From a virus: 64,000 nucleotides of DNA. Below are positions 1,126 to 36,333 of the stretch, piece by piece. The stretch lies in IMG/VR virus record IMGVR_UViG_3300028844_005216, positions 20,269 through 84,268 of that record. One strand, given 5' to 3'. The position numbers and the translations under genes are program-made. The notes below the pieces were generated by a model, which worked only from the letters and a program-made list of their open reading frames with translations, was not told the DNA's origin and did no database searches. How positions within the stretch are numbered: position 1 is the stretch's first letter; each line of letters starts with the position of its first letter.

Positions 1126-1137
1126 TCGAAGACTATA

Positions 1138-2001: not shown

Positions 2002-2008
2002 AATATTA

Positions 2009-2070: not shown

Positions 2071-2124
2071 CTTAATGCTTTATATATATCTAAATCATCT
2101 TCCTCCTCAGAATCTTCATGATTA

Positions 2125-2947: not shown

Positions 2948-2955
2948 TTTGTCTC

Positions 2956-3198
2956 CTACAGAGGCAATTTTGAACGTCGTGGTAAGAAGTTTAGATCTCG
3001 GGCTTCCGCCTCAACCTTAGCTTTAATGTTTTTGTTCAGAAGACCCGCTGCCTTTTCTGGTTCAATATTTCTTTTGTTCGCATTGAACACGATTGCATCC
3101 ATGTAAGATAGTTTTTCATTGTAAACTATATGTTCCACTTCCATAGAGAAAGTGTTTGAAAGTTCCCTTTTACTCAACATGATAATTTCCTCACTCAT
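2956..3198 (-). CDS. gp33: Late transcription co-activator (T4 gp33 family)
   Basis: FSMEVEHIV, YMDAIV, IEPE, KVEAEARDLNFLPR. Confidence 0.92.
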   Translation of the reverse strand: MSEEIIMLSKRELSNTFSMEVEHIVYNEKLSYMDAIVFNANKRNIEPEKAAGLLNKNIKAKVEAEARDLNFLPRRSKLPL

Positions 3199-3757: not shown

Positions 3758-3761
3758 AACC

Positions 3762-3902
3762 TTACCTCACAAAAAGATCCCAAAGGAAATCGAAAACAGC
3801 AACACCGACGAAAATCATTATGAGTGGGTCGTTGTATACGGAAAGAAAAACTCCCCACCAGTCTGTATCAGTCCAACTCCATCCATGCTTATACCATTTC
3901 AT
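3762..3902 (-). CDS. Small Trp-rich membrane protein (46 aa, not in ORF track)
   Basis: Translated by hand: MKWYKHGWSWTDTDWWGVFLSVYNDPLIMIFVGVAVFDFLWDLFVR; fills the gap between neighbours. Confidence 0.55.
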   Translation of the reverse strand: MKWYKHGWSWTDTDWWGVFLSVYNDPLIMIFVGVAVFDFLWDLFVR

Positions 3903-4566
3903 CTCTATACCTCTTGATCGTATCTTTCAACGGCTGAATCCAATCTTTGACTGGAGAGGGGAACGCTTGCATCTTTGGCATGTTGCCAGCAACAGAAATC
4001 AAAATAAGACCATGATCAATTTTAATTCCTGTCAACTCTTCATACATAACTGAATAACCAGCACACTGCATATAGTAATTTGAAATCCAATTTTCCCTCT
4101 TTGGTTTAGCAGAAGTCTTAAAGTCAATGATCGCAGGAATCCCCATCCATTCACCAATCAAATCAACCCTTCCAGCAATACCCAATGAAACAGAATAAAG
4201 AGGAACCTCTACATGATAAACCTTCGTGAGATATTTTTCCAAACTCGGTTTCAGAACATTGAACATTTCGATTGATGTGGGCTGTTGATTCGTGATCAGT
4301 TGCTCTTCATTGTTCACGAACCGTTCGCACAAATCATGGACTTCGTTTCCGCGAAAGCGTGCTTTCAAAGAAACACTATCTGCTTCTTCAGTTCCGACCC
4401 GCTTCCTCCACTTTGCAATAGAATCTTTTGAATTGACAGAGAGAACCGAAGTGATGCTAGGACACAAAACCCCCGGCTCCACCTCATAAAATCTGTCTCC
4501 ATTATTATAAGAAACACTTAACGGTGAATACTTCAAATTAATTGGGGGCTCATGTACGAACGGCAT
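3889..4566 (-). CDS. PD-(D/E)XK exonuclease of T4-like phages
   Basis: PSITSVLS, KWRKRVG, RGNEVH, AGRVDLI, IIDFKTS, YYMQCAGY. Confidence 0.9.
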   Translation of the reverse strand: MPFVHEPPINLKYSPLSVSYNNGDRFYEVEPGVLCPSITSVLSVNSKDSIAKWRKRVGTEEADSVSLKARFRGNEVHDLCERFVNNEEQLITNQQPTSIEMFNVLKPSLEKYLTKVYHVEVPLYSVSLGIAGRVDLIGEWMGIPAIIDFKTSAKPKRENWISNYYMQCAGYSVMYEELTGIKIDHGLILISVAGNMPKMQAFPSPVKDWIQPLKDTIKRYRDEMV

Positions 4567-4567
4567 A

Positions 4568-4930
4568 TCACTCTCCTACTCTTGGTTTACCCTTTAATTT
4601 ATCATGAACTGTGGTCTTAATTTCATGCTTAGTCAACGGCTTCTGTTTAGTCTTTTCCCGATTTTCTAACCGACCTTCTATCTCGTATCGTGTTCCCTTA
4701 ATACCACTAGCTTCATTAATTTTGGCAACCACTTCATTATATGAATTATCGGGTTTTGTTATACCAAGGTTAACAGAATCTCCTATCATAACATTACCAA
4801 GCAATTGTCGAACAGAATCTTCACCACATTCAGGACAACCATTATCTATAGGAATCTTACGGTCGGCGATCCGATGAACTTCAGTAAATCCGCTGCCACA
4901 TGACTCACACTCGTAATCATACCAAGGCAT
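4568..4930 (-). CDS. FmdB-like zinc-ribbon protein
   Basis: [11 protein letters not shown]...CPECG. Confidence 0.8.
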   Translation of the reverse strand: MPWYDYECESCGSGFTEVHRIADRKIPIDNGCPECGEDSVRQLLGNVMIGDSVNLGITKPDNSYNEVVAKINEASGIKGTRYEIEGRLENREKTKQKPLTKHEIKTTVHDKLKGKPRVGE

Positions 4931-5154
4931 CAGTACCCATCCTTATACCAACCTTTGCCCTTGAGGACAAAACTGGTGTTGGAAATTAATCGTTTGACTG
5001 GCGCTTTACAGCACTCATCGACCAAAATAGAATCTGGCGGCGGGATATCTCCCGCACCATCATGAACTGGACAGCACTCAAGAGGCTCTTCTTTAATTCC
5101 TTGCCAATACTCAAACACATGCCCGTCTTCACACTCATAGTCATACCTCGGCAT
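4930..5154 (-). CDS. FmdB family zinc-ribbon protein
   Basis: [14 protein letters not shown]...CP...[15 protein letters not shown]. Confidence 0.85.
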
Positions 5155-5344
5155 TCTTTTTTGCCTTGCGCTTTCGCTTCTGAGGTTTTTCCCCAGAGTC
5201 AGCCTTAACGCCAGCGTCTTTACGACGCTTCAGCCATCGCTGAATATTTTCGTTATAATCCTCGGCAATTTCAATTGCCTCATCAAGAGAAACGATACCC
5301 CTCTTCACCTTCTGGCGAAGACCCATCTTATTTTCATCAGACAT
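5141..5344 (-). CDS. Hypothetical basic protein
   Basis: Probable start MSDENK; Lys/Arg-rich tail; tightly packed operon. Confidence 0.55.
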
Positions 5345-5540
5345 CGAAAATGTCCTCCTCAATTTTAAGTTCAATAGAATCAACAAAGCCTTCAACAAAT
5401 CCACGATTCTTGATCCCAAACTCTACATTCGCTTTACCAACAACATAATCCTTTAGATTATTACCCCTGTAACCAGAAACAATTCCGTCGTTTATAAGAT
5501 TAGAAAGAAGAATGCACCGTTCACTAACTCTATTACCCAT
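5337..5540 (-). CDS. Hypothetical protein
   Basis: Translationally coupled to both neighbours. Confidence 0.55.
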   Translation of the reverse strand: MGNRVSERCILLSNLINDGIVSGYRGNNLKDYVVGKANVEFGIKNRGFVEGFVDSIELKIEEDIFDV

Positions 5541-5842
5541 TATATATCTCCCAAATTCCAGTCACAATTATTGCCCCAATCAAAATCAATTTTCAATTTT
5601 CTTTGTATTTTTTTCAAACTCCTTTGGTGCAATTGGTTTCTCTTGTAGTAACTCAAATGCGTTAATTTACAAGACTCCACAATGGACTGCAATTCTTCAA
5701 AACTGAGATTGACTAAAGTTTCAAAAAGTTCACTTCGAGATTCCTTCTCAATCAAAAATTCTAAAGGATTTACATCATAGCTAGGAAGACATCTAGCCTG
5801 TTGAAGATTAGACCAATACAAATCCTCGATCGAGGCTAACAT
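5540..5842 (-). CDS. Hypothetical protein resembling an isolated sigma-70 region 4
   Basis: NPLEFLIEKESRSELFETLVNLS..E and RNQLHQRSLKKIQRKL. Confidence 0.45.
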   Translation of the reverse strand: MLASIEDLYWSNLQQARCLPSYDVNPLEFLIEKESRSELFETLVNLSFEELQSIVESCKLTHLSYYKRNQLHQRSLKKIQRKLKIDFDWGNNCDWNLGDI

Positions 5843-6119
5843 CTAAACGACCCTTTTCTTTCTGATCAAAACAGTCAGGACAAGCATACTTGGCTTCCGA
5901 ATGCATTCGATCATAATCTTTGTCAAGAACGATTCGTCTCACTGCATAAGTTTCCTGATTGCAGAAATCACATACATACAACTCTTCACTAAATTCCTCC
6001 AACAAATCCATAGAGTTGGGTCGCGAATCATGCCTGCGAAGCCTGCGATCTCTCATTGGACCCGCAGAATTTCTAAAATGGGCACTAACAGCGTTCCAGT
6101 TTCTATTATTGGTATTCAT
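5808..6119 (-). CDS. Hypothetical zinc-finger protein
   Basis: CDFC...CPDC. Confidence 0.6.
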   Translation of the reverse strand: MNTNNRNWNAVSAHFRNSAGPMRDRRLRRHDSRPNSMDLLEEFSEELYVCDFCNQETYAVRRIVLDKDYDRMHSEAKYACPDCFDQKEKGRLDVSLDRGFVLV

Positions 6120-6504
6120 TTCCCAACTCGTTTTGTTGTTTTGTTAATGATGCATTCAAAATATGACCTTCTCCACAATGTGAACATCTCTCATGCACCT
6201 CAACGCCGGAAGCAGGTTTGATCATAACTTGATGATCAATAATCTCATCCAAAATAAGACCACTCTCAACCAAAGTTTCCATTGTGGAATTCATTCCATC
6301 CTCGTTTCCCCTGCTCCAAGAATTGAAAGCAATAAGTATTGCCATGCCTGCCATAAATCCAATAATAAGCACAGACTCTAGAATGCTAAGTGAGCTGTAT
6401 GAAAGGAATAAAATAAACCCAACCGTTGCTAGGTAAGGAAACCATACATCAAGAAAAAATGTATACCAGTTCGTCAATGTTCTCGTCTCTACTTGGTCGC
6501 TCAT
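6106..6504 (-). CDS. Hypothetical two-TM membrane protein with C-terminal CxxC
   Basis: Two hydrophobic segments, CSHC; start uncertain. Confidence 0.55.
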   Translation of the reverse strand: MSDQVETRTLTNWYTFFLDVWFPYLATVGFILFLSYSSLSILESVLIIGFMAGMAILIAFNSWSRGNEDGMNSTMETLVESGLILDEIIDHQVMIKPASGVEVHERCSHCGEGHILNASLTKQQNELGNEYQ

Positions 6505-24905: not shown

Positions 24906-25574
24906 TTAATTTTCTCCTACCAGATATTTCCAAGATACCGGGAATCTTTCTTTCATACTGAAACTAATTAAGTCAGCGATTTCTCTCGTCTCTCTTTGAG
25001 TGTCTTTTGCACATCGTAAATTACAAACTCTTGCAAATGCATATAGAGAGCCTGTCCAATACCACTCTGTCATAAGACTTTGAGGAAGAACCATACGAGC
25101 CTGTTCCGCACAGACACCCGCGTCAATCAGTTGATTATATAGGTTCACACATTTCTTACCCATTTTCTCAACTGCATCATCAACCGAAAGTTCATTAATC
25201 AAAAGCCACAAAACTTCTTCAGTTTCAGAAGAACCTTGCTTTTTATTCTCAGGATTGGCTCGCCAACTCTCTGGTCTAAAAAGTTCTGGTTCTGTTTGAA
25301 TATATCTCCGCGATACTTCGTTCCAAGTTAAACCCACTTGATGCTTAACCAATTGTCTCGCAACGAAAATGGGAGCCTTTATCCTAAACTGCAAAGAGCA
25401 ATGTCCAAACGGAGTCCAGTGATTATTTTCCGCAAGAAACTTAATCAGCTTTTCATCTCCACTCGAAAAATGCTCTACATTTTTATTAAAACTCACTCTG
25501 GCTGCATTAACGACTGTCAAGTCGCTTCCCATGCAATCAACCAACCTTACTTCACTCGGGGTCAACCGTTCCAT
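24906..25574 (-). CDS. thyX: FAD-dependent thymidylate synthase
   Basis: VVNAARVSF, HWTPF, APIFVARQLVKHQVG, NEVSRRY, EQARMVLPQ. Confidence 0.96.
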   Translation of the reverse strand: MERLTPSEVRLVDCMGSDLTVVNAARVSFNKNVEHFSSGDEKLIKFLAENNHWTPFGHCSLQFRIKAPIFVARQLVKHQVGLTWNEVSRRYIQTEPELFRPESWRANPENKKQGSSETEEVLWLLINELSVDDAVEKMGKKCVNLYNQLIDAGVCAEQARMVLPQSLMTEWYWTGSLYAFARVCNLRCAKDTQRETREIADLISFSMKERFPVSWKYLVGEN

Positions 25575-26602
25575 TATATAAGTACCTTCTTCCATGCGTT
25601 AAATGCCACCAATGCCTGCAAACCAGAATAGGTGTTTTTATTTATCATTTCTTCGATTTTGCTCGCGGGGGTTCCTGCAAGAATCATATCATTAATGTCT
25701 TTTTCCTTAATGTTTTCAGGCCAGATGCAAACACGATAATCATCGTCAATAATTTTTTTAATTTTTTTAACAATTTCTTTATTTCTGGGCTCATTATCAA
25801 ATACGATAACACACTTATCTTTCCTAACTTCCGATTCTAGTTTGGAAAAATCAGCACCACCCACTGCAATTGCGTTGTCTAGAAATAAAGAATCAATCGG
25901 ACCCTCAACAACATAAATAGAATCTCTAGAATTTCTTTTGGTTTGATCAAGACCAAATATCATCGGCGCATTATTATTAAGACGGAATGCAAGATAACGC
26001 ATTTTCGTAGAGCTGTGAATTGCTCTCGCAGCAATTCCAACAAGCTCCCCATCCCTATTAATAAATGGAAGAATAACTCTAGGCTGATTTCCCCGAATTC
26101 GATTTTTGTAGATAGGATCTACCTTCTCCAAAGCATTATCATCGTGGATGTAATACAATCGGTTTAAAGATGAATCGGGAATTCTTCGATCATTGATAAA
26201 GCGATGGACCACATGATTCCTTGGAATACGATCAACTCTTTCTGCCCCCAAATCTTCAAGGAAACGTACATCACGCACCCTCCTCTTTCGCTTAGGCGTT
26301 TCTCGTTTTTCCTCACGTTGCGTATTCTTACCAAAACCCTCAAGCATATAATTCTTATACATCATATTATCGACATGCTTAATTAGATTGCCGAAGGATC
26401 TAGTATCACCACAATTGTGACACTTAAACACAAAACTGTCTCGATCCTTGCTTGGATATAGGTATCCACGAGCTTTATAACGATTCTTTTCAGAATCTCC
26501 ACAAAGCGGACAACGGAAATTATAGAGATTATTGGTTTTTTTCTTGAACTGTTGTAATCTGGACGACAATAGCCCAACGTACTTCACGTCTACATGCTTC
26601 AT
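25574..26602 (-). CDS. gp61: DNA primase (T4 gp61 family)
   Basis: NFRCPLCGDS, KARGY, FKCHNCG, VVEGPIDSLFL, FDNEPRN, KDINDM. Confidence 0.96.
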   Translation of the reverse strand: MKHVDVKYVGLLSSRLQQFKKKTNNLYNFRCPLCGDSEKNRYKARGYLYPSKDRDSFVFKCHNCGDTRSFGNLIKHVDNMMYKNYMLEGFGKNTQREEKRETPKRKRRVRDVRFLEDLGAERVDRIPRNHVVHRFINDRRIPDSSLNRLYYIHDDNALEKVDPIYKNRIRGNQPRVILPFINRDGELVGIAARAIHSSTKMRYLAFRLNNNAPMIFGLDQTKRNSRDSIYVVEGPIDSLFLDNAIAVGGADFSKLESEVRKDKCVIVFDNEPRNKEIVKKIKKIIDDDYRVCIWPENIKEKDINDMILAGTPASKIEEMINKNTYSGLQALVAFNAWKKVLI

Positions 26603-27187: not shown

Positions 27188-27359
27188 CTGCTTTTTTTCT
27201 CCTCTTTGCATTCTCTTCATGTGCCTCATTTTGTGCCTCGGCTTTTCCGCGTTTTCGAGAACTCTGAATCCTCATCCACTCACCAACAATTCCACTAAAA
27301 AAAGTAACAATCGCATTCAGGGCAATTTTTATTGCAGAAATAAGAAAACCAACCATCAC
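27099..27359 (-). CDS. Putative i-spanin (Rz-like)
   Basis: N-terminal TM, then charged helix; overlaps the lipoprotein gene. Confidence 0.55.
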   Translation of the reverse strand: MMVGFLISAIKIALNAIVTFFSGIVGEWMRIQSSRKRGKAEAQNEAHEENAKRRKKADDILQKPIKTGKSLTDNIRKRSKSKSSGK

Positions 27360-27715
27360 CGCTTACCCCTTCTAAGATACATCATCATGCCATAGGTAGA
27401 ATCCTTAATGATAATACCTTTTTTTGGATTCTTCAAACCATATTCGCGAATATTTTGACCACATTCATCACCACCAACATGTTTTACATAACGATCATAT
27501 CTTGATTTCTCACCCTTACACTTAGCAAAAACCTCGGAAGAAACTTCATACACATTTGTCCCAGCAAAGATCTCTTGCTTTTTTTTCTTCTTCTTTTTTG
27601 GACCCGGAGGTTCGCCGACCATTCCACCACCAACTGAACCAACAGTTGTAGCAGGAGCTTCAGATTCTTCAAAATCACGAAGAGATTCAATAAGATCTGT
27701 ATATGTTTTTAGCAT
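27356..27715 (-). CDS. Conserved T4-like hypothetical late protein
   Basis: MLKTYTDLIE N-terminus, EPPG + poly-K, IIIKDSTYG.M.YLR. Confidence 0.65.
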   Translation of the reverse strand: MLKTYTDLIESLRDFEESEAPATTVGSVGGGMVGEPPGPKKKKKKKQEIFAGTNVYEVSSEVFAKCKGEKSRYDRYVKHVGGDECGQNIREYGLKNPKKGIIIKDSTYGMMMYLRRGKR

Positions 27716-27716
27716 T

Positions 27717-28121
27717 TCATATCTCCCTCAACCTATCCACAACATCGGTACATGTGGGTATATCAGAACCGATGATATCTTTACCTTTTATATTTACAAC
27801 AATGTCTGGCATAAAATTTAAATATGTCAAAAACGTTTTTAATACAGAATAATCATCAGGTTCCATTTTGAAAAATAATATTCGAGTTGCAGCTTCAAAC
27901 TCAAATACATTATAGAACATTATAATATGATTTAGAATCAGCCGCTCTTTCAATTCACCAGAACTCAAATACCGATTAATCAATCTTTTGATATACTTAG
28001 GTATTTTAACGTCGTCATGAAATTCCTCAAGGTCTACACACTGAGGATTATTATACGACATAATCATATAGGAATCAATAGTTTTTTCATTCAAAGAAGA
28101 AATATTCATAATAATTAGCAC
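27717..28121 (-). CDS. Conserved T4-like hypothetical protein
   Basis: YNNPQC...EFHDD...KYIKRL..RY...GELKERLILNHII..YNVF. Confidence 0.8.
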   Translation of the reverse strand: MLIIMNISSLNEKTIDSYMIMSYNNPQCVDLEEFHDDVKIPKYIKRLINRYLSSGELKERLILNHIIMFYNVFEFEAATRILFFKMEPDDYSVLKTFLTYLNFMPDIVVNIKGKDIIGSDIPTCTDVVDRLREI

Positions 28122-28124
28122 TAA

Positions 28125-28775
28125 TTACTTAATTCGATAGTTGCTCCTATACTTTGGTTGATGCACCGGCTCTGTGTGACCAACCGCCTGATGCTGCGCG
28201 CTGCCATACTTATCTCCTCCACGAGAAGATGCCTTATTTTCCCCACCAGAAAATTTATCATTCGCAGTTGCATGGGAAAGATATCGGTTTGCTGCTTGTT
28301 CGGGAGTAAGTCCCTCAATGTACGCAACTCGCCGCTGCAACGGATCAAGATATGCGCTTGGCTCTTTTGATGAAACGAGCGAATCAAATTTATTCATCCA
28401 ATCATTTCGGAAAGATTCTTCCTCTTTGTTTGAATAAGAAAATACCGAATCAAAAGAAGCCTCAAGATTCTCAAGCATCGCGGATCGTTCGTCTCGAAAA
28501 TCTTCATTCACATCGGGATTGATGGTAATCTGCTCTTTTTTTCCAGAAAGATCTAATTTCTTCCCTCGTTTAGATGGCTTGCGAATAGCTTTACTGATAG
28601 CCTTTCGTCGATTTTTAAGATACTGATCAGAAGAATCTGTATCCCCATCGTTATCAATGTCACCATCTTCTTTTCCCACAGGGTCAAGACGTGTTCCATT
28701 AGATTTTTTTTCTTGCAGTACACCAGAAACCGCATCAGCAAGACTATCTGAAATTTGTTTATGCCAAGTAGACAT
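28125..28775 (-). CDS. Hypothetical virion protein with DxDNDGD Ca-binding-like loop
   Basis: LDPVGKEDGDIDNDGDTDSSDQYLKNRRKAISKA; late promoter upstream. Confidence 0.7.
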   Translation of the reverse strand: MSTWHKQISDSLADAVSGVLQEKKSNGTRLDPVGKEDGDIDNDGDTDSSDQYLKNRRKAISKAIRKPSKRGKKLDLSGKKEQITINPDVNEDFRDERSAMLENLEASFDSVFSYSNKEEESFRNDWMNKFDSLVSSKEPSAYLDPLQRRVAYIEGLTPEQAANRYLSHATANDKFSGGENKASSRGGDKYGSAQHQAVGHTEPVHQPKYRSNYRIK

Positions 28776-28843: not shown

Positions 28844-30175
28844 TCAATCCTTATTGCCAAAAAGTTTCCATGCAGTTGCATAAAGAACCTTTTCTCCGTT
28901 CTTTTCACCATACTGCTTCTTAAACTTGGCTTTATTGGCTTTGATGAATCTCTCTGCACCTGCACTCGGAGGAGCGACTTCATGAAAATCAATAAGCGGC
29001 TCAATGTCTTCAACATCATCAGGCTGACCCGGAACCTCTTTACTGTAACGACTTGCCAGTTCCTTCGTTCCCCACTCAGCAGGAGTAGTATCCTGCACCA
29101 AATCTTTAAACTTCTTCATGCCATATCTCCTATCAGACTTCTTTTGAAAACTCTCCCAAATATCAGAGTCTACGCTTCTTCTTGAATTACCACCAGAGAC
29201 AAAGGAGTTGACCCGATCAAATGCATATTGATGTGCTGTCTTATCTCCGTAAATTGGACTTGAGGCTAATCCCCTCAAAAATACCTCAAGCAAAGACTGA
29301 TAAGCAATTCCACTCTTCTCTGATTTTTTAACAAGAGCATCGCGATGATCTTCTTTCATTAAGAAATCATCATGCAGGAGAAGAAGCATTCTCCTGTAGA
29401 GCAAATCATCTGCCATAACATACTCAAGAACTTTATCTACAACAGCGATAATATGTTTTCGCAACTCTGGATTTGAACCGGACTTCTCAAGATCTTTGAA
29501 TGTTCTCTTTGTGATTGGAAGGTCTTTCATCGGAACCAAACCAAAGCGAAGAAGTGTATTGAAACGCCTTCCCGTCACACTCTTATCACCTACAACGTGA
29601 GTGTCTTCAATTGATTCATAGATATGTTCCGTGATCTGCATTCCACGCCGGATAGCATCATAAAGTGCCTTGGGATTCTTCATCGGAGAACCCTTCTTGA
29701 ACTCTTTATAATTACCATCAACTGCAAACTTCCGCATCTTGGATGCAGACATTCCGGTCACATCTTCGGCATCAGGATCTCTTTCTCCTGCCGAGATGAT
29801 CTCAATTTTATCAAAATCATATTCTTTTCCATTATACTGATTAAGCAGTCTCTTAAACTCTTGGGCTCTGTCGGAACCCACAACAAGAGACACCTCTTGA
29901 TACTTCTTATCAAGAAATTTCATAACATCAAGAACGGTCTTGATACTCGGAGAAGCATTAATGTTATTTGAATGTGTAGGAAAGGACTGCTTGAGAAACT
30001 TGACCTTCGTGCGGAAGGTGAGTGGATTCTTCTTGGGGTCATTGGATTTAGATGCAAATATAGCATACTCCGCTTTTCGCGACTTTGCTTCTTTTGCAAC
30101 GCGGTCCATGACGACCTTATGTCCTGTCGTGGGAGGATTAAATCTTCCCCACGCAAATACAATTTTTCTTTTCAT
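28844..30175 (-). CDS. HxGH nucleotidyltransferase (phage 'cytidyltransferase' family) with C-terminal extension
   Basis: FAWGRFNPPTTGH, KNPL, VVGSDR, SAGERDPDA, GMSASKMR. Confidence 0.85.
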   Translation of the reverse strand: MKRKIVFAWGRFNPPTTGHKVVMDRVAKEAKSRKAEYAIFASKSNDPKKNPLTFRTKVKFLKQSFPTHSNNINASPSIKTVLDVMKFLDKKYQEVSLVVGSDRAQEFKRLLNQYNGKEYDFDKIEIISAGERDPDAEDVTGMSASKMRKFAVDGNYKEFKKGSPMKNPKALYDAIRRGMQITEHIYESIEDTHVVGDKSVTGRRFNTLLRFGLVPMKDLPITKRTFKDLEKSGSNPELRKHIIAVVDKVLEYVMADDLLYRRMLLLLHDDFLMKEDHRDALVKKSEKSGIAYQSLLEVFLRGLASSPIYGDKTAHQYAFDRVNSFVSGGNSRRSVDSDIWESFQKKSDRRYGMKKFKDLVQDTTPAEWGTKELASRYSKEVPGQPDDVEDIEPLIDFHEVAPPSAGAERFIKANKAKFKKQYGEKNGEKVLYATAWKLFGNKD

Positions 30176-30213
30176 AGCAGGTTTCCCTTAGCCTAACTGC
30201 TGTAACATACTAT

Positions 30214-30573
30214 TCAGCTTTTTGGAGCAGATGACTTCATCTGCTTAAATCTTTCGGCTTCCTTCTTCTTGATCTTTGGCAGTATCTTGACTGCCAACTT
30301 ATTGATCTTTGCCTTGTGCTTTTCTAGTCTCTTCTCGATTGAAATCAACATTTGCTTAGATTCAATCTCACCCTTAGTTTTTCCAGAAGTCAGCTTCTTG
30401 AATAGAATTTCTCTCGCTGCCTTTTGGGCTCGTCTCTTTAGTGATTTGGCATCAGCAAACTTAGAAAGTTTTCGCTTGCGAGCGCGTGCAATAAGGTTAG
30501 CTTTTCGCTTCATCATCTGCCCTTGCTTTCGGCGTCTTTGCATTGACCAAACTTCGTTCATTTTATTCTCCAA
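30214..30573 (-). CDS. Highly basic hypothetical late protein
   Basis: Lys/Arg-rich helix; CCTAAATA at 30582-30589. Confidence 0.65.
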   Translation of the reverse strand: MENKMNEVWSMQRRRKQGQMMKRKANLIARARKRKLSKFADAKSLKRRAQKAAREILFKKLTSGKTKGEIESKQMLISIEKRLEKHKAKINKLAVKILPKIKKKEAERFKQMKSSAPKS

Positions 30574-30584
30574 ATATATTATAT

Positions 30585-31829
30585 TTAGGAATCCCAGTTT
30601 TTGATAGCAGTGAAATTCTGATGTGAAAACTCAAGACGATCAACTAATTTGATTGTCTTTCCGTCACGATCCACTGCAACAAAACCCTCGTCTCCTGTGA
30701 CTCGGTATCCTGTATTGGTCTTAACAAAGGTTCTATACTGATTTGCACCACTTCCGAGCTTTTCCACAATCACATTCTTTGCATTGACCACATGTGTCTG
30801 ATACTCTGCAAACGCAATCAACGTAGGTTTAACTTTTCGATATACTTTGAGATGCTCTTGCTTTGTTCGTTCTTTGATATCCTTTGTCTTTTGCATTTTC
30901 AGACCAGCAATATGAGTATCCCACCACTGAGTAAAATAATTATAATACTCAACGGCATGTTTGCGAGGATTAGTAATTGCCTCTCCTGCACGAACCTTCG
31001 TGTTGCAATAGGTCTTATAGGAAGACCCCACCGCAGCCGAAGGAATCTTATTCTGCATATCAATAAACAAATCTAAATCTTTTGACTTAACCTTTCGGAA
31101 TGCCTTACCAGCCCGCGAAAGATGGCGATTAAGTTCTTTGATTTCCTTGGGGGTGAATAACACATTACCCGAAAGATCGTGATAGTAGGCGTCGTCATAC
31201 CACACACTCTTTGGTTTTTTCATGCCCGCAATGTTTACACCAATAGATGCAGACATATCAGGAAGAGTATCACCAGTATATGTTGTGTGCCACACGACAC
31301 CAATCTTTGCTGCTTTAATTTGCTTGGCAAGTGCTGATGTCGTATCTACTGCATAGACGATTGTATTGGGTTGAAATGTAACGTAATCAATTCCATCAAT
31401 CGTTTCATCAGAAAGGTCACTCTTGGTGAACATCATGTCACCCTGAATGACTCCATTGATTCCCAGCTTGGGCAGTTCCTTGAGCGCAATCTTTAACTTA
31501 TCTGCAAGACCACCAGAATAACCATACTTCTTTAGATCGGCATTCGACTTGACCAGCTTGGCATTCTTGGCAAACACACCTTTGGTTCCAACAAAAAACT
31601 TCCCATCTTCTGGATCGGTTCCTGCAAAGACAGCAGGGGCTCCATCCCACTTCACATGTAGATCAACCTTCTTCGTAGACTTGCCGGAAAGCATGTCCCG
31701 AATAGAACGAAGGAAGTTGATACCAGAGCGCATACCATCAATACCATAAAAGAATACAAGATCCTCAAGATGTTCAAGGTGCAAGTTCTTGGTTGCGTCT
31801 TCTGTCAAAAATTGATTAAATGATTGCAT
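30585..31829 (-). CDS. Conserved T4-like protein with ATP-dependent ligase/nucleotidyltransferase-like motifs
   Basis: KNLHLEHLED, VKWDGAPA, IQGDMMF, FQPNTIVY, EGFVA, KLVDRLEFS. Confidence 0.7.
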   Translation of the reverse strand: MQSFNQFLTEDATKNLHLEHLEDLVFFYGIDGMRSGINFLRSIRDMLSGKSTKKVDLHVKWDGAPAVFAGTDPEDGKFFVGTKGVFAKNAKLVKSNADLKKYGYSGGLADKLKIALKELPKLGINGVIQGDMMFTKSDLSDETIDGIDYVTFQPNTIVYAVDTTSALAKQIKAAKIGVVWHTTYTGDTLPDMSASIGVNIAGMKKPKSVWYDDAYYHDLSGNVLFTPKEIKELNRHLSRAGKAFRKVKSKDLDLFIDMQNKIPSAAVGSSYKTYCNTKVRAGEAITNPRKHAVEYYNYFTQWWDTHIAGLKMQKTKDIKERTKQEHLKVYRKVKPTLIAFAEYQTHVVNAKNVIVEKLGSGANQYRTFVKTNTGYRVTGDEGFVAVDRDGKTIKLVDRLEFSHQNFTAIKNWDS

Positions 31830-33178
31830 TATGCATACTCCGCAATTAGATCACCCATAAATTTCCCCTTTTCTATCAAATTACGATAGTAACCGCCACC
31901 AACAGATTCTCTTTTTACCCTCACTATAAGCAGTTGTGCGCGAGAAGTTTTTTCCACGATAATTACACTCGGAAGAGGTTCACCAGTGGTTTTATTTATT
32001 CCCTTAACATAATCAACATCAAAATCATACTCAGCTAAAACATTATTCAAACCACGAAAATTATATATTTTCGCTTCACCTTTAGCCAATTGTACAAGAG
32101 TTACATGTTCTTCGCCGAGAGTAGCAAAATCATCTATGGCGTCTCCCAGATTCTTAAACACATCAGCTCTTTGTCGTTTAGTTCTCATTCGACTTGTTAA
32201 CTCACTCGCAACGTGATCATATATGTAATTAATTGCACCAGAAGTGTCTTTTTCTTTATGCAGCTTTCTATTATACACATTCTTCTTTGATTTAATATTA
32301 ATACCAAACAACTTATCAAAAAGTTCTACATAACCATCAACCATTTTGCCTTGTGCATTTTTTTGGCGGTCAAAATTAACACCACCCTTTTGACCAAACT
32401 GTTTAACGTCATCAACCTTTAAGGACACCTTAATATCAACGTCCTGCGGTTTACCTTTATCATCTGTAATAGTAACAAAAGTATCAACCTTGGTGGTGGT
32501 CTGTCCCATTCCGGGCAAACTACCAACACCATCTGATATTATTTCTATTTGGTCATATCTTCTATTTTCATATATGATCTTTGCCCATTTTTTTACATTT
32601 ATATTATTTGCATATGCTACCGAAGATTGTGCATAACCATTTAGTGCTGCTTTGCTTTTTTTATCAATCAAAAAATTTAAATTAGCCTTTGCCAAAGATA
32701 TGTATAACTTTACATCATCCTTTAATGAAATACCTTCATTATCGGCTTTTACATTTTTCTCAACTTTGGCACCACCTTTTACTGTTTCGGTTTTTCTTAT
32801 ACCATTCAAAACTTTAAATACATCAGTCACCTTAACATCTGTATTTCTATTTGTGAATCGACAAAAAATCGCAGCAGCAAACACACCCTCGGCAGTGTCC
32901 CCCATATTTGCAGTAACTTTTGGTTTGCGTATTTGACCGAATGTATATACCTTTCCATCATCACCCAAAAAGGTCAAATTCACGGCTTCTCTATTTTGTC
33001 CAGAATTTACTAATTTCAAAAACTTATCTAATGCTTTTTTGTCTTTTGATCCAACCATCTTCGTGGAACTAACCTTAAATTTTCCAGCAGCAAACATATC
33101 TGCAACAGATGGTGCATATTTTTCGATCTTTAATCCAGTAGTACCAGATAGTGGTTGAGTTGATTGAGTAATTTCCAC
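31829..33178 (-). CDS. Hypothetical protein, possible PD-(D/E)XK (D...SxK) endonuclease fold
   Basis: GDTAEG helix, TKVD, VSLK; TATAAATA upstream. Confidence 0.5.
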   Translation of the reverse strand: MEITQSTQPLSGTTGLKIEKYAPSVADMFAAGKFKVSSTKMVGSKDKKALDKFLKLVNSGQNREAVNLTFLGDDGKVYTFGQIRKPKVTANMGDTAEGVFAAAIFCRFTNRNTDVKVTDVFKVLNGIRKTETVKGGAKVEKNVKADNEGISLKDDVKLYISLAKANLNFLIDKKSKAALNGYAQSSVAYANNINVKKWAKIIYENRRYDQIEIISDGVGSLPGMGQTTTKVDTFVTITDDKGKPQDVDIKVSLKVDDVKQFGQKGGVNFDRQKNAQGKMVDGYVELFDKLFGINIKSKKNVYNRKLHKEKDTSGAINYIYDHVASELTSRMRTKRQRADVFKNLGDAIDDFATLGEEHVTLVQLAKGEAKIYNFRGLNNVLAEYDFDVDYVKGINKTTGEPLPSVIIVEKTSRAQLLIVRVKRESVGGGYYRNLIEKGKFMGDLIAEYA

Positions 33179-33206
33179 AGATAATCCCCTTAAAACAATA
33201 CAATAT

Positions 33207-33214
33207 TATTTATA
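33207..33214 (-). promoter_or_regulatory. T4 late promoter TATAAATA
   Basis: Exact consensus 29 nt upstream of the GTG start. Confidence 0.75.
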
Positions 33215-33574: not shown

Positions 33575-34972
33575 TTAGTCCACAATGAAATCCGAAAACT
33601 TGCTCACACCCTTGGGGGCAGTTGAGTTATTCTTATTAGAAGACAAGCTGCTATCCTGCATAAGATCACTCTGAGCATCATCTTCACAATCAAACAATCG
33701 CATTTTATTACGATCAACTCCAATCACAAACCTGCGTTTAGAAGTCATATCAGAATACCGATTTTTTAATTGCTTAATCATAATCTGGTTCATCTCATCC
33801 AATTCATCTGTACGAATCAACGCCAGAAAAAGATCAGCCGTCGCAGGAAGTCCAAAACTCTCTGCAACATCTTCCATCGAAACATCACTACTAGATGATC
33901 CAGAACGATTAATCTGAGTCGCAGTAACAATGGGAACAGCGAGTTCAACAGCCAGTCCACGAAGCTCTTCTGCGATACTTTTAATTTTCTCATAACTATT
34001 TACGTTTGCTCCTCTGTAAACCATCGACTGACAAAGATTGATGTAGTCAATGAAAACAAGATCAGGAACAAAATTTTTCTTCATGGCAAGTTCTTTTGCA
34101 AGATGCCGAAAATGACCTGCTCCAGCTTGAACTGTTGGATATTCCTTTACAATAAGTTTGCCCGTAGTCTTTTGTCGCAGATCACTGATCTTGTTGTCAT
34201 AAATTGATTTGGCAAGACCCTTTAAGTCTGACATCGAAACATTCATCAGGTTCGCATCTATTCTTTCAGAGATTTTTTCTTCTGCCATTTCAAGAGTAAT
34301 GTACAAAACATTGTATCCACTGGACATTGCACTTGCAGCCATATGACACATTGCCAAAGTTTTACCAGCACCCGGAGATGCCATCAAAACGTTTAACGTC
34401 TTTTTAATCAACCCGCCTTCAGTAATCTCGTTAAAAAGAGAAATATCAAAGGGAATGTGTTCTTCCTTTCTGTTATAAAAGGCAAATCGTTCAGCAGAAT
34501 CCTCAATGTAGTCATGACCAATATGAGAGTCAAACGAAACGGAAAGAGCCTCTGTCAAAAGAGTTGGAATAGCACCTTTGTCCTTTTTAGTATTTCCATC
34601 AAGAATCTGAATAGACTCCATGATTGAATTATAGATTGCCTTGTCTTGACAAAACTTTTCGGTCGTATCAATCAACCACTGCTCTTCGTTATTAGGATCA
34701 GACTTCTCAATCTCATCAATAGTTTCAATAACAGATTCATAATCTTGCCCGTTTCCGCCTCCGACATTGGCGTCGTCGATCTCTACACGCAAAGATTCTA
34801 CGGAAGGATTGGTATTATACTTGTTGACATACTTAACAATAGCATCGAAAATAATCCGATCCGCATTATCATGAAAATACTCACTCTTCAGAAACGGAAC
34901 TGCGCTTTTCATGAAGGACTGGTCCTTCATGAGACTCGTCAGTATTATCAATTCCGTCTTCCGTGTTGCCAT
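33575..34972 (-). CDS. gp41: Replicative DnaB-like helicase (T4 gp41)
   Basis: TEKFCQDKA, IGHDY, ASPGAGKT, YITLEMAEE, LIVKEYPT, FIDYINL, IAEELRGLAVE, ESFGLPATAD, KQLKNRY. Confidence 0.97.
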   Translation of the reverse strand: MATRKTELIILTSLMKDQSFMKSAVPFLKSEYFHDNADRIIFDAIVKYVNKYNTNPSVESLRVEIDDANVGGGNGQDYESVIETIDEIEKSDPNNEEQWLIDTTEKFCQDKAIYNSIMESIQILDGNTKKDKGAIPTLLTEALSVSFDSHIGHDYIEDSAERFAFYNRKEEHIPFDISLFNEITEGGLIKKTLNVLMASPGAGKTLAMCHMAASAMSSGYNVLYITLEMAEEKISERIDANLMNVSMSDLKGLAKSIYDNKISDLRQKTTGKLIVKEYPTVQAGAGHFRHLAKELAMKKNFVPDLVFIDYINLCQSMVYRGANVNSYEKIKSIAEELRGLAVELAVPIVTATQINRSGSSSSDVSMEDVAESFGLPATADLFLALIRTDELDEMNQIMIKQLKNRYSDMTSKRRFVIGVDRNKMRLFDCEDDAQSDLMQDSSLSSNKNNSTAPKGVSKFSDFIVD

Positions 34973-35297
34973 GTCGATTTCTCACTTCCTTATCCGCTTC
35001 GTCTTGGACCATATCTACCAAAACATTTAAGAGCAATTGATCAAAACTATCCTTCATATCTTCGGGGTAGTCCACATCTCGAATTTCCTCTGGGATATGA
35101 AGAACCTCAAACTGATACTCCACCTTCAAATTCTCATCAAGCTCACTGGGCTTACCAAAGCGAAAATCGCCATACTTATACACCAATCCCGAAAATGGAC
35201 CCGTTGTCAATTCAACCGCACCCTCACTATTATTTTCTGGATTGGAAACTAAACGATAGTAGTCCTTAATATTATTTTCACTCGTCTCCCACATCAC
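34881..35297 (-). CDS. Conserved T4-like hypothetical protein
   Basis: VELTTGPFSGLVYKYG; lies between uvsX and gene 41. Confidence 0.65.
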   Translation of the reverse strand: MMWETSENNIKDYYRLVSNPENNSEGAVELTTGPFSGLVYKYGDFRFGKPSELDENLKVEYQFEVLHIPEEIRDVDYPEDMKDSFDQLLLNVLVDMVQDEADKEVRNRHGNTEDGIDNTDESHEGPVLHEKRSSVSEE

Positions 35298-36333
35298 TCA
35301 CCTCCTCAATATCTTCACTCATTGTAGCCTGCGTGGTTCCATATTTAAACTCGACCCCACATGCCTTATCAATCTTATCTAAAATATCTTTTGTAAAAAT
35401 CTTCTCTGCGTTTTTTATAATGTGGCTTGCATAGTGTTTGTTTCCATCCGGCAACTCAATCTTATTAGAAACCTTCTTGAAAATTTCATGAGCCACAGCA
35501 AGTTCAATTAAACCATAATACCTATCCAGTCCTGTATCATAACGAAGAAGAACATCAACCATCTTGTTCTCTACCGTTAAACGAGACTTGTAGTTTCTAC
35601 AATGAATAACATTACCAACAACATCTGTCCCAACCTTTTCCTTTCGCTTAGTAAGAAATATAATATTATCAGCAGAATACTTCAAGCCACTACCACCAGC
35701 AAGTTCCTTTGTTGGATACAGACTCCCGATGCTGTCGTATGTATGATTAGTGACAACCATTGGGATTCCCAGCTTACCTAACTGAATCGTCAACACACGA
35801 AACGCACCCTTAATCATAGGAGCGCGAGTCATGTCTCTCTTTTCAGAACCAGACTCAACATCAGCAACTTCCTTGCTTGTTGACAACTGACCCAGACTAT
35901 CCAAGCAAAATAGAAGAGGGTGACGACTACTTTCGGGTGTCTCCTGAACTCTCTTCAGAATATTCATTGCCTGTGTACGAAACTCTTCAACAGTAGACAC
36001 CGGAAGCATTGTTACTCGCTGGCTATCAATGCCACGTTCATCAAACATATCATGCGTAATGGCAGATTCACTTTCAAAGAAAATAACTCCACCGTCTTTG
36101 TGATCATTAAGAAATTGGCGAATCATTCCCATCAAAAAGAATGTCTTGCCCGTTGCAGACTCACCAGCAAGGGCAGTAATCTTATTCCCCGGAAGACCTT
36201 TGTAAATCGAACCCGAAATAAGACCATTCAAAATATAAGAACCCGTATCAGTATATGATGTTACATCTGCATACTGATCAACAAAGGGATTCACCTTACT
36301 CAAATCACCAAGAAAATCAAATGTTCCGCTCAT
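35278..36333 (-). CDS. uvsX: RecA-like recombinase
   Basis: DTGSYILNGLISGS, AGESATGKTF, LDSLGQL, DMTRA, VTNHTY, GGSGLKY. Confidence 0.96.
   Translation of the reverse strand: MSGTFDFLGDLSKVNPFVDQYADVTSYTDTGSYILNGLISGSIYKGLPGNKITALAGESATGKTFFLMGMIRQFLNDHKDGGVIFFESESAITHDMFDERGIDSQRVTMLPVSTVEEFRTQAMNILKRVQETPESSRHPLLFCLDSLGQLSTSKEVADVESGSEKRDMTRAPMIKGAFRVLTIQLGKLGIPMVVTNHTYDSIGSLYPTKELAGGSGLKYSADNIIFLTKRKEKVGTDVVGNVIHCRNYKSRLTVENKMVDVLLRYDTGLDRYYGLIELAVAHEIFKKVSNKIELPDGNKHYASHIIKNAEKIFTKDILDKIDKACGVEFKYGTTQATMSEDIEEVSDVGDE

What the first reader, a model, noticed from the sequence alone, without database searches (positions are those of the whole stretch)
28844..33214. Late operon of nuclease-like, KxDG ligase-like and HxGH nucleotidyltransferase genes: a candidate virion-delivered nucleic-acid/NAD repair module
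Seen: a TATAAATA late promoter drives three enzyme-like genes. (i) 31829..33178 has an E...D...SLK pattern. (ii) 30585..31829 carries, in correct order, VKWDG (motif I KxDG), IQGD (III), EGFV (IV) and IKLVD (V), and starts MQSFNQFLTE. (iii) 28844..30175 has GRFNPPTTGH and SASKMR. Known: KxDG/EG/K motifs define the covalent nucleotidyltransferase superfamily (RNA/DNA ligases, capping enzymes); GRFxPxHxGH typifies NMNAT/NadM-type adenylyltransferases; T4 internal proteins begin MKTYQEFIAE. Inference: these usually 'hypothetical/cytidyltransferase' genes may be enzymes packaged late and injected into the next host to repair cut RNA/tRNA or restore NAD+, i.e. an undescribed anti-defence kit.
Basis: partly seen in the sequence, partly recalled or inferred. 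Interest (0 to 1): 0.8.

Follow-up and report, generated by a model that had tools for sequence, protein, structure and literature searches.

The report
Phage ligase-like and adenylyltransferase cargo genes
A marine T4-like phage carries a late gene block whose conserved heart is an unstudied ligase-like protein (DUF6267) paired with an NAD-synthesis-like enzyme, and the ligase-like one bears the short tag that T4 uses to load proteins into its head, so it is probably injected with the DNA.

Summary
The three genes, their motifs and the TATAAATA box are all present as described. The window is a fragment of an uncultured marine T4-like (Kyanoviridae-like) phage. The block lies between helicase gp41 and primase gp61.

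The conserved unit is two genes, not three. DUF6267 (30585-31829) and the HxGH nucleotidyltransferase (28844-30175) are adjacent in 33 of 57 related loci and fused in both orders elsewhere. The nuclease-like ORF1 precedes DUF6267 in only 5 of 64 loci.

DUF6267 keeps near-invariant ligase motifs I, IV and V. Its only profile signal is weak, to T4 Rnl1 (E 0.0013-0.011), though this beats all shuffles and negatives and equals known ligase-ligase pairs.

The HxGH protein passes Pfam CTP_transf_like and is nearest to NMNAT/NaMNAT models, far below their cut-offs. No NAMPT partner was found.

The DUF6267 N-terminus matches the T4 capsid-targeting sequence at its four functional positions. The window's HxGH protein lacks that leader. 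In three cyanophage virion proteomes, leader-bearing HxGH proteins were detected and leaderless DUF6267 proteins were not.

Virion-carried NMNAT-like proteins are already in print. This scan noted the same module before in other genomes. The anti-defence role is untested.

The parts
33207..33214 (-). T4-type late-promoter-like box TATAAATA, 29 nt upstream of the ORF1 start
   Evidence: The box recurs 900-1800 nt upstream of DUF6267 in 23 of 59 related loci.
31829..33178 (-). ORF1, 449 aa, phrog_3560. A possible PD-(D/E)XK-like nuclease (E97, D232, S252-x-K254) and a lineage-specific add-on.
30585..31829 (-). DUF6267 (PF19782) protein, 414 aa. Ligase-like, candidate covalent nucleotidyltransferase.
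31800..31829 (-). Codons 1-10 of DUF6267 (MQSFNQFLTE): a T4 capsid-targeting-sequence-like leader with a predicted protease site after Glu10
31641..31652 (-). Motif I, K60-W-D-G63 (candidate nucleotidylated lysine)
   Evidence: The N-part aligns residues 57-125 to Rnl1 96-155, which puts K60 opposite K99 by offset, E 0.16; a lax alignment shows the same pairing.
30735..31187 (-). Variable helical insert (about residues 215-365), absent from natural short forms of the family
30636..30689 (-). Motifs IV-V, E381-G-F-V ... K394-L-V-D-R398
   Evidence: hhalign to T4 Rnl1 E227-G228/K240 gives E 0.0022-0.0013; 0 of 40 column shuffles reach it.
30214..30573 (-). Small, very basic protein (119 aa, 34% K+R), conserved between DUF6267 and the HxGH gene in relatives
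28844..30175 (-). HxGH (here TxGH) nucleotidyltransferase, 443 aa. The NMNAT-like N-domain covers residues 1-190 (29606-30175). A DUF5824-like stretch covers residues 279-367 (29075-29341). There is no capsid-targeting leader.
27356..28775 (-). Three downstream co-oriented genes. 28125-28775 carries a DPVGKEDGDIDNDGD motif. 27717-28121 is DUF7207. 27356-27715 starts MLKTYTDLIE and has a K7 run. Only the DUF7207 gene matches an S-SZBM1 gene (SSZBM1_135), which was not in that virion list; the detected S-SZBM1 and S-CREM2 genes are its neighbours in the same position before the primase.

Best explanation
This is a late-transcribed block of a marine T4-like phage. It sits between helicase gp41 and primase gp61, and its conserved core is a two-enzyme pair.

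DUF6267 is most likely a divergent member of the lysine-nucleotidyl (covalent nucleotidyltransferase) superfamily. It resembles ATP-dependent RNA ligases that lack an OB domain. Motif I is K60xDG, a TK83 element lies 23 residues later, motif IV is E381GFV and motif V is K394. A dispensable helical insert separates the N-terminal part from motifs IV-V.

In this phage DUF6267 carries a T4-type capsid-targeting leader. It is therefore probably loaded into the prohead, trimmed by the gp21-type protease after Glu10, and ejected into the next host with the DNA.

It works with the neighbouring NMNAT-like HxGH adenylyltransferase. That enzyme would make or regenerate an adenylylated small molecule, with NAD+ the leading candidate. 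In this clade the HxGH protein has no leader, whereas in cyanophages it has one and is found in virions.

The proposed joint action is sealing or adenylylating nucleic-acid ends very early in infection.

What is shown: the motifs and their conservation, the linkage and fusions, the leader and its enrichment, the placement of the late-type box, and virion detection of HxGH relatives. What is inferred: the ligase fold, packaging of this DUF6267, the substrate, and any anti-defence role. ORF1 is a separate, rarely linked, possibly nuclease-like gene.
For: Family identity:
- DUF6267 matches PF19782 at E 6e-101. The HxGH protein scores 26.3 bits against CTP_transf_like, above the cut-off of 21.

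Linkage of the pair:
- phrog_455 is one 764-position profile that covers both proteins.
- P0170 is DUF6267 followed by CTP_transf_like and DUF5824. P0262 and P0195 are HxGH, a Zn ribbon, then DUF6267. P0140 is DUF6267 followed by an HxGH-like part.
- An HxGH gene lies downstream on the same strand in 33 of 57 loci that have at least 2 kb downstream, usually after a small basic gene.

Ligase-like features:
- The motif residues are the family's near-invariant columns.
- Natural short forms lack only the middle insert.
- hhalign of the C-terminal part against the Rnl1 family aligns EGFV...K394 with E227-G228...K240 at E 0.0013, and the insert-excised core gives E 0.011. None of 40 column shuffles reaches either value. 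Twelve negative comparisons give E 0.10-0.62. Known ligase-ligase pairs give only 0.03-0.14.
- Pfam RNA_lig_T4_1 hits 4 of 104 members, best E 6.2e-4.
- Six complete Kyanoviridae genomes that carry DUF6267 have no PF01068 or PF09414 match, and four have no PF01653 or PF09511 match. The T4 control was positive for PF01068, PF09414 and PF09511; PF01653 was checked only by the tool's own control genomes.

Capsid-targeting leader:
- In DUF6267, position 4 is F in 61 of 104, position 7 is F or Y in 62, position 8 is L, I or V in 90, and position 10 is E in 73. These are the positions that matter in the T4 capsid-targeting sequence (PMC9026906, section 2.6).
- A strict leader pattern matches 86 of 217 DUF6267 proteins and 43 of 120 HxGH proteins, against 2 of 150 window ORFs.
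- All 3 virion-detected HxGH proteins have the leader, and all 3 leaderless DUF6267 proteins were undetected.

Late promoter.
Against: - No ligase appears in four HMM searches of PDB sequences, at E up to 10 for the DUF6267 profiles.
- hhalign probabilities are only 3.7-18%. The N-part alone aligns K60 to Rnl1 K99 at just E 0.16.
- The Pfam ligase hits are below the gathering score, and none of 10 further members I scanned showed one.
- Only one Lys lies in motif V, and motif III has Asp where ligases usually have Glu.
- The window's HxGH protein and its whole clade lack the leader.
- No gp21-type protease was found in the 84-kb fragment, which is 46% complete, although relatives have one.
- DUF6267 has never been seen in a virion proteome in the three papers or records I could check.
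- The HxGH protein scores 21 bits against the 112-bit NadD cut-off.
- No NAMPT was found.
- The TATAAATA count is not above chance.
Confidence: 0.55

Rival explanations
1. DUF6267 is the missing replicative or repair DNA ligase of Kyanoviridae. It would seal Okazaki fragments and nicks inside the infected cell, and the NMNAT-like partner would keep up the NAD+ (or another adenylyl donor) that it uses. Packaging would be irrelevant.
For: The block lies in the replication module between gp41 and gp61, next to UvsX. Six complete genomes have no PF01068 or PF09414 match, and four have no PF01653 or PF09511 match. gp30 is listed among quasi-core genes that are missing in some marine cyanophages (PMC2993671, passage). 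By my own reading, KxDG(A/S)P with TK 23 residues later resembles motifs I and Ia of DNA ligases; this comparison is recalled, not tested.
Against: A late-type promoter, not an early or middle one, precedes the unit. A capsid-targeting-like leader is conserved. Only about 20 residues follow motif V, so there is no OB domain. In S-CREM2, S-SCSM1 and ACG-2014f the gene lies outside the replication module. hhalign of the C-part and the insert-excised core to the narrow T4 gp30 family alignment gives E 0.16-0.44.
Confidence: 0.17
2. The two enzymes are unrelated in function. The HxGH protein is a stand-alone NMNAT that restores NAD+ after depletion by host defence, in the manner of NARP2, or that boosts host NAD. 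DUF6267 is a non-enzymatic internal head protein whose 'ligase motifs' are coincidental.
For: NadD or NMNAT models are the commonest weak hits: TIGR00482 in 28 of 40 members. JGI names many homologues NaMN adenylyltransferase. NMNAT-like proteins are in four cyanophage virion proteomes, and an NAD role is proposed in print (PMC9602691 section 13; PMC9146016 Table 1; PMC10665884 Table 3). No significant ligase hit exists.
Against: Fusions recur in both orders, and adjacency holds in 33 of 57 loci. The invariant columns of DUF6267 are polar or catalytic-type residues (K, D, E, H) rather than a structural pattern. No NAMPT was found in the fragment or in 4 complete genomes. All NMNAT equivalog cut-offs are missed by a wide margin.
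Confidence: 0.15
3. The pair is an injected effector that nucleotidylates a host or phage target rather than joining ends. Examples would be AMPylating a protein, capping an RNA or DNA 5' end, or building an App-linked nucleotide. This would be analogous to T4 Alt, which is a packaged modifying enzyme.
For: Both folds make A-5'-pp-5'-X linkages (established chemistry of the two superfamilies, recalled). A leader is present. T4 Alt is a packaged enzyme processed by gp21 (PMC9026906, passage). Motifs III and V are atypical.
Against: There is no direct evidence for any target, and none of the block's proteins has a PADLOC hit. This rival is not separable from the best explanation with the tools available.
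Confidence: 0.1

Closest known systems
ATP-dependent RNA ligases without an OB domain (T4 Rnl1, PF09511; also Rnl2/Rnl5 types)
   Same: DUF6267 has a KxDG lysine motif, an EG(F/Y)V motif IV, and a motif V lysine 13 residues later, which is the same spacing as T4 Rnl1 E227 to K240. No OB domain follows motif V. The best, though weak, profile alignments fall exactly on these motifs.
   Different: There is no significant sequence match, and the Pfam hits are below cut-off. A helical insert of about 150 residues separates the N-part from motif IV. Motif III has Asp131 in QGD, and motif V has a single Lys followed by D-R. An N-terminal HLEHxED element and a capsid-targeting-like leader are present. 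Earlier notes of this scan name NgrRnl/Rnl2/REL1 as fold matches; I could not test that.
NMN/NaMN adenylyltransferases (NadD TIGR00482; NadR/NadM types) and the phage NAD+ salvage or reconstitution pathways (NARP2; KVP40 NadV-NatV, recalled)
   Same: The protein has the (H/T)xGH and ISxxxxR-type motifs and passes Pfam CTP_transf_like. NMNAT models are the most frequent weak hits.
   Different: It scores 21 bits against a 112-bit cut-off. The first His of HxGH is Thr, as in PPAT (a recalled comparison). It carries a C-terminal extension of about 250 residues with a DUF5824-like stretch. No NAMPT partner was found. It is linked or fused to DUF6267 instead.
T4 internal proteins IPII/IPIII and other capsid-targeted cargo (Alt)
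   Same: DUF6267 has a ten-residue N-terminal leader with an aromatic residue at positions 4 and 7, an aliphatic residue at 8 and Glu at 10, and sits behind a late promoter. A small, very basic protein is encoded beside it.
   Different: The cargo would be a 46-kDa enzyme of a different family. Packaging is not shown for any DUF6267. The window's basic protein and HxGH protein lack the leader.
Virion-associated 'cytidylyltransferase/NMNAT' of cyanomyoviruses (S-SZBM1_140, S-CREM2 gp154, S-SCSM1 ORF91, S-CBWM1)
   Same: These are homologues of the HxGH domain: 38% identity to SSZBM1_140 and 45% to S-SCSM1 ORF91. In S-SZBM1 and S-CREM2 the gene lies upstream of the primase; in S-SCSM1 it lies within a run of virion-protein genes.
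   Different: Those proteins carry the leader and a linker before the catalytic domain. The window's protein starts directly at the catalytic motif (residue 10).

Membership tests
Covalent nucleotidyltransferase superfamily (RNA/DNA ligases, capping enzymes) | Motif I KxDG with an invariant lysine | tested here: met
   K60 is kept in 103 of 104, D62 in 103 of 104 and G63 in 104 of 104. Short forms have KIDG or KMDG.
Covalent nucleotidyltransferase superfamily (RNA/DNA ligases, capping enzymes) | Motifs IV (EGxx) and V (lysine) downstream, in order | tested here: met
   E381 is kept in 103 of 104, G382 in 104 of 104 and K394 in 104 of 104. They align to Rnl1 E227-G228/K240 at E 0.0013, and 0 of 40 shuffles reach that. 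Only one Lys lies in motif V.
Covalent nucleotidyltransferase superfamily (RNA/DNA ligases, capping enzymes) | Motif III acidic residue and motif IIIa aromatic residue | tested here: inconclusive
   QGD131 and F152-x-PNTI-x-Y159 are invariant or nearly so. No alignment places them reliably on ligase motifs.
Covalent nucleotidyltransferase superfamily (RNA/DNA ligases, capping enzymes) | Significant profile match to a member family | tested here: inconclusive
   No PDB hit. Pfam RNA_lig_T4_1 hits 4 of 104 members, best E 6.2e-4, below cut-off. hhalign gives E 0.011 at probability 3.7%. The same method gives only 0.03-0.14 for known ligase pairs, so it cannot decide the question.
Covalent nucleotidyltransferase superfamily (RNA/DNA ligases, capping enzymes) | Nucleotidyltransferase fold; lysyl-NMP adduct | not testable with these tools
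The adduct needs a bench assay.
DNA ligases / capping enzymes specifically | OB domain with motif VI after motif V | tested here: not met
   Only 20 residues follow K394.
NMNAT / NaMNAT (NadD, NadR, NadM) | (H/T)xGH and ISxxxxR-type motifs; Pfam PF01467 at or above the gathering score | tested here: met
   GRFNPPTTGH and GMSASKMR are invariant in 40 members. The Pfam score is 26.3 bits against a cut-off of 21.
NMNAT / NaMNAT (NadD, NadR, NadM) | Score at or above the NCBIfam equivalog cut-off | tested here: not met
   TIGR00482 scores 21 bits against 112.45. Of 40 members, 28 hit it weakly and none comes near the cut-off.
Phage NAD+ reconstitution/salvage (NARP2-type) | A NAMPT (PF04095) partner in the same genome | tested here: not met
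   0 of 5 records had a match: the G000 fragment plus Melnitz-3, S-SZBM1, S-CAM3 and S-CREM2.
PD-(D/E)XK nucleases (ORF1) | A conserved E...D...(D/E/S)xK pattern | tested here: met
   E97, D232, S252 and K254 are invariant in 33 members. This is a pattern only.
PD-(D/E)XK nucleases (ORF1) | Significant match to a nuclease family, or the fold | tested here: inconclusive
   PDDEXK_10 hits 4 of 33 members, best E 0.0079, below cut-off. There are no PDB hits. One Atlas cluster has RE_HaeIII in 24% of its members. The fold was not modelled.
T4-type capsid-targeted proteins | An N-terminal leader: aromatic at positions 4 and 7, aliphatic at 8, Glu at 10 | tested here: met
   DUF6267 (MQSFNQFLTE) meets it. 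The window's HxGH protein and ORF1 do not.
T4-type capsid-targeted proteins | A gp21-type prohead protease in the genome; presence of the protein in virions | tested here: inconclusive
   PF03420 was not found in the 46%-complete fragment but is present in Melnitz-3, S-SZBM1, S-CREM2 and T4. No virion data exist for this phage.

The most novel reading that the evidence does not exclude
DUF6267 and the HxGH enzyme form a capsid-delivered, pre-expression repair or counter-defence kit. It would act before any phage gene is transcribed. The ligase-like enzyme would reseal nucleic acid cut by host nucleases (for example tRNA or mRNA), or would adenylylate ends. The NMNAT-like partner would regenerate the adenylyl donor (NAD+), making the pair independent of a host pool that defence systems deplete. 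That would make one of the most abundant proteins of unknown function in ocean viromes an injected enzyme.
Probability: 0.2. Interest if true: 0.85.

Novelty: new variant of a known kind. Interest (0 to 1): 0.6.

Why it matters
DUF6267 is very abundant. The search returned more than 8000 clusters at 90% identity, which was the cap, and 2558 clusters at 50% identity. It occurs in 464 phage records, nearly all of them marine cyanophages. A full-text search found no paper that names it.

If it is a ligase-type enzyme, it fills the 'no recognisable ligase' gap in Kyanoviridae. If it is loaded into heads, it adds an enzyme class to the short list of proteins that phages inject.

The link between the leader and virion detection gives a simple rule that can be tested: which of the two partners is packaged differs between clades. 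The HxGH part is already discussed in print, so the new content concerns DUF6267, the pairing, and the leader logic.

Tried and rejected
The ESM Atlas held both unknown proteins but had no models.
- PDB sequence searches with single proteins and with profiles A1, A2, A4 and A5 gave only spurious hits: ribosomal eS8, LSD1, enolase and S-layer proteins.
- hhalign of A1 against single T4 Rnl1, Rnl2 and gp30 sequences and against narrow family alignments gave probabilities of about 1% or less. Broader Rnl2 and Rnl1 alignments helped only for Rnl1.
- I tried to find the 4 members behind the Pfam RNA_lig_T4_1 hits by scanning 10 candidates. None of them had the hit.
- An Rnl1 HMM run against all fetched proteins gave noise only.
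- ORF1 is not fused to DUF6267 in long forms. Its profile does not detect the genes in the same position in Melnitz-3, S-CAM3 or S-SZBM1.
- No homologue of the ACG-2014f methyltransferase that flanks the ORF1 homologue occurs in the fragment.
- PADLOC gave no hits for six proteins of the block.
- A near-identity DNA search of the phage collection found nothing.
- Searching for short-form DUF6267 relatives in viral contigs gave only 3 loci.
- I did not use the look-up of sequencing runs or read laying, so there is no expression evidence.
- Supplementary tables were not opened. For S-SCSM1 I used the 'virion protein' notes in the GenBank record instead of the paper's own virion list.

Full report
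**What the window is.** The window is bases 20269-84268 of an 84-kb IMG/VR viral contig judged 46% complete. No phage record matches it at the DNA level. At the protein level the nearest isolate is Methylophilales phage Melnitz-3 (Kyanoviridae), at 49% identity for the DUF6267 protein.

All genes of the block run on the minus strand. In order they are UvsX (35278-36333), gp41 helicase (33575-34972), a 59-aa membrane-like ORF, ORF1, DUF6267, a small basic ORF, the HxGH gene, four or more small ORFs, and gp61 primase (25574-26602). The same position between gp41 and gp61 is occupied by DUF6267 plus a 'cytidyltransferase' in Melnitz-3, S-CAM3 and S-SZBM1.

TATAAATA lies 29 nt upstream of the ORF1 start, after a terminator-like hairpin. 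Its count in the window is what chance gives: 4 observed against 3.86 expected. However, all four copies are intergenic. Among 80 related loci the box lies 900-1800 nt upstream of DUF6267 in 23 of the 59 loci that have enough upstream sequence. That distance places it in front of the preceding gene, as in the window. It lies within 100 nt of DUF6267 in 5 of 80 loci.

A review of T4 late transcription states that highly similar late consensus sequences were identified for cyanophage S-PM2 (PMC2988020, passage). I accept the box as a likely late promoter for a unit that starts with ORF1. ORF1 and DUF6267 overlap by one base.

**Which genes belong together.** DUF6267 and the HxGH gene are a pair.
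- One PHROG profile (phrog_455, 764 positions) matches DUF6267 on positions 14-341 and the HxGH protein on positions 421-616.
- Among 10 long DUF6267 representatives scanned with Pfam, P0170 reads DUF6267, CTP_transf_like, DUF5824. P0262 has the HxGH domain at the N-terminus and DUF6267 at the C-terminus.
- Their sequences, and those of P0195 and P0140, show the HxGH and ISxSKMR motifs directly. P0195 also has a DFDDT (HAD-like) stretch and a CxxC...CxxC ribbon.
- In 80 IMG/VR loci, an HxGH-family gene lies downstream on the same strand in 33 of the 57 loci with at least 2 kb downstream, and in 41 of all 80. The typical gap is 350-450 nt.
- That gap holds a small basic protein homologous to the window's 119-aa ORF in 13 of 22 intervening ORFs.

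ORF1 is different. Its family precedes DUF6267 in only 5 of 64 loci. Its profile does not detect the genes at that position in Melnitz-3, S-CAM3 or S-SZBM1. Among isolates it occurs in 47 records, 45 of them labelled Synechococcus phage (the listed ones ACG-2014f) and 2 Desulfovibrio phages. In ACG-2014f it sits beside a DNA methyltransferase.

**Is DUF6267 a ligase-type enzyme?**

*Evidence for.*
- K60xD62G63, D131, E381G382 and K394 are kept in 103-104 of 104 diverse homologues.
- K83, in a TK(S/G) element 23 residues after motif I, is kept in 103 of 104.
- The spacing from E381 to K394 (13 residues) equals that from T4 Rnl1 E227 to K240.
- Natural short forms of about 300 aa in S-CREM2, S-SCSM1 and ACG-2014f lack only Pfam positions of about 207-311. 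The N-part and the motif IV-V tail therefore form the core, and the helical middle is an insert.
- hhalign puts EGFV...K394 on Rnl1 EGYV...K240 (E 0.0022, then 0.0013 with a broader Rnl1 alignment). It puts E381 on Rnl2 E204 (E 0.1) and K60 on Rnl1 K99 (E 0.16). With the insert excised, one collinear alignment spans motifs I to V (E 0.011).

*Controls.* None of 40 column-shuffled profiles reaches the observed values (minimum 0.0057 for the C-part and 0.013 for the core). Twelve comparisons of unrelated profiles (ORF1, HxGH, the insert) with the ligase alignments give 0.10-0.62. True superfamily pairs give only 0.14 (Rnl1-Rnl2), 0.03 (Rnl1-gp30) and 0.11 (Rnl2-gp30). The method at hand therefore cannot detect known relationships either, and DUF6267-Rnl1 scores at least as well as those pairs do.

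*Evidence against.*
- No ligase appears in the PDB sequence searches.
- The Pfam RNA_lig_T4_1 hits cover only 4 of 104 members, best E 6.2e-4, below the cut-off.
- The hhalign probabilities are low.
- No OB domain follows motif V. The architecture therefore fits RNA-ligase-like enzymes rather than DNA ligases or capping enzymes.

*Fold and context.* The fold could not be modelled here. Earlier follow-up notes of this scan, on other genomes, say that a predicted fold matches NgrRnl, Rnl2 or REL1. I list them as untested leads, not as support.

Six complete Kyanoviridae genomes with DUF6267 have no PF01068 or PF09414 match at E up to 1. Four of them have no PF01653 or PF09511 match. T4 was positive for PF01068, PF09414 and PF09511; for PF01653 the only check was the tool's control genomes.

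**The HxGH protein.** It passes Pfam CTP_transf_like (26.3 bits against 21). Its motifs are GRFNPP-T-x-GH and GMSASKMR.

Against NCBIfam, 28 of 40 family members weakly hit NadD (TIGR00482, best E 2.5e-5). Twenty-three hit the generic cytidylyl/adenylyltransferase domain, 10 hit NadR-type NMNAT and 5 hit CoaD. All are far below the cut-offs. It is therefore NMNAT-like, not a demonstrated NMNAT.

No NAMPT (PF04095) was found in the fragment or in four complete genomes that carry the gene. Residues 279-367 align with the DUF5824 region of the Melnitz homologue.

**Packaging.** T4 ipII and ipIII start MKTYQEFIAE. According to a review (PMC9026906, section 2.6, passages read), the first ten residues of IPIII suffice for head targeting. 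Residues 4 and 7 matter most for targeting, and residues 8 and 10 for processing.

In DUF6267 exactly these positions are conserved: F4 in 61 of 104, F or Y at position 7 in 62, L, I or V at position 8 in 90, and E10 in 73. A strict pattern for the leader matches:
- 86 of 217 full-length DUF6267 proteins;
- 43 of 120 HxGH proteins;
- 2 of 77 ORF1-family proteins;
- 2 of 150 window ORFs of at least 80 aa, one of which is DUF6267 itself.

The published virion proteomes agree with the leader logic.

| Phage | HxGH protein (N-terminus) | Detected in virions? | DUF6267 homologue (N-terminus) | Detected in virions? |
|---|---|---|---|---|
| S-SZBM1 | SSZBM1_140 (MRFRQFIIE) | Yes | SSZBM1_141 (MAKNTHLEH...) | No |
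| S-CREM2 | gp154 (MKNFSSFLTE) | Yes | 302-aa form | No |
| S-SCSM1 | ORF91 (MKSFLQFLKE) | Yes | SSCSM1_257 | No (not marked as a virion protein) |

Sources: PMC9146016 Table 1, PMC10665884 Table 3, and the GenBank record of S-SCSM1. That makes three of three in each direction. The numbers are small and the proteomes are shallow (30, 52 and 45 proteins).

In this window the roles are reversed. DUF6267 has the leader. The HxGH protein, like its closest listed homologues, starts directly at the catalytic motif; 42 of the 120 family members are leaderless with the motif within the first 20 residues. A gp21-type protease was not found in the fragment but is present in three relatives.

**What is already in print.** PMC9602691 (section 13, read in full) reports an NMNAT in S-SCSM1 virions. 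It notes NMNAT-like proteins in S-CBWM1 and another cyanophage, and it proposes that a virion-carried NMNAT could alter host NAD. A full-text search found no paper that names DUF6267. Two other searches, on cyanophage cytidylyltransferase and virion proteomes, gave 11 and 4 papers. None of the passages I read mentions a ligase-like partner.

**Verdict.** The core is a ligase-like plus NMNAT-like pair behind a late-type promoter, and in this phage DUF6267 is the partner tagged for the capsid. ORF1 is a variable neighbour with only weak nuclease hints. The biochemical activity, the substrate and the anti-defence role remain inference.

This scan has noted the same module several times on other DNA.

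Noticed in passing
window 63638-64000 (+), ORF runs off the window end: Its N-terminus, MKRFKDYITE, is the only other strict match to the T4-like capsid-targeting pattern among 150 window ORFs of at least 80 aa. It may be another head-cargo gene.
   Followed up: no
window 28125-28775 (-): This 216-aa protein has an acidic Ca-binding-like motif, DPVGKEDGDIDNDGDTDSSDQYLKNRRKAI. The motif recurs at the C-terminus of S-CAM3 gp181 (67% identity over 46 aa). It also appears in several PHROGs, including phrog_764, which is annotated 'cytidyltransferase'. It looks like a mobile module shared by proteins of this block.
   Followed up: partly
window 30214-30573 (-) and loci L066, L078, L079, L081, L090, L118, L128: The small, very basic protein (27-34% K+R) between DUF6267 and the HxGH gene is conserved. 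In many relatives it starts MKTF..L....E, like a T4 internal protein. The window's copy (MENKMNEVW...) lacks that start.
   Followed up: partly
proteins P0195, P0240, P0262 (metagenomic, 928-1066 aa): These giant fusions read HxGH nucleotidyltransferase, CxxC...CxxC ribbon, DUF6267. In P0195 a DFDDT (HAD-phosphatase-like) segment follows the HxGH part. That would add an end-healing-type domain to the pair.
   Followed up: partly
proteins P0445, P0451, P0453 (725-754 aa): These HxGH-family proteins carry a precomputed PF01909 (pol-beta-type nucleotidyltransferase) domain.
   Followed up: no
L056 (Synechococcus phage ACG-2014f) 4803-11057: The ORF1 homologue gp187 is followed by a DNA methyltransferase, a small ORF, an 892-aa 'cytitidyltransferase' with no Pfam hit, and a second methyltransferase. 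This looks like a restriction-modification-type arrangement around the same block.
   Followed up: partly
window 27356-27715 (-): This 119-aa ORF starts MLKTYTDLIE, close to the T4 leader but shifted by one residue, and contains a run of seven lysines.
   Followed up: no
L280 (S-SCSM1) 858-6336: The NMNAT gene lies inside a run of five consecutive genes marked 'virion protein' in the GenBank record. In that phage the enzyme is embedded in a cargo or structural cluster, far from its DUF6267 gene.
   Followed up: partly
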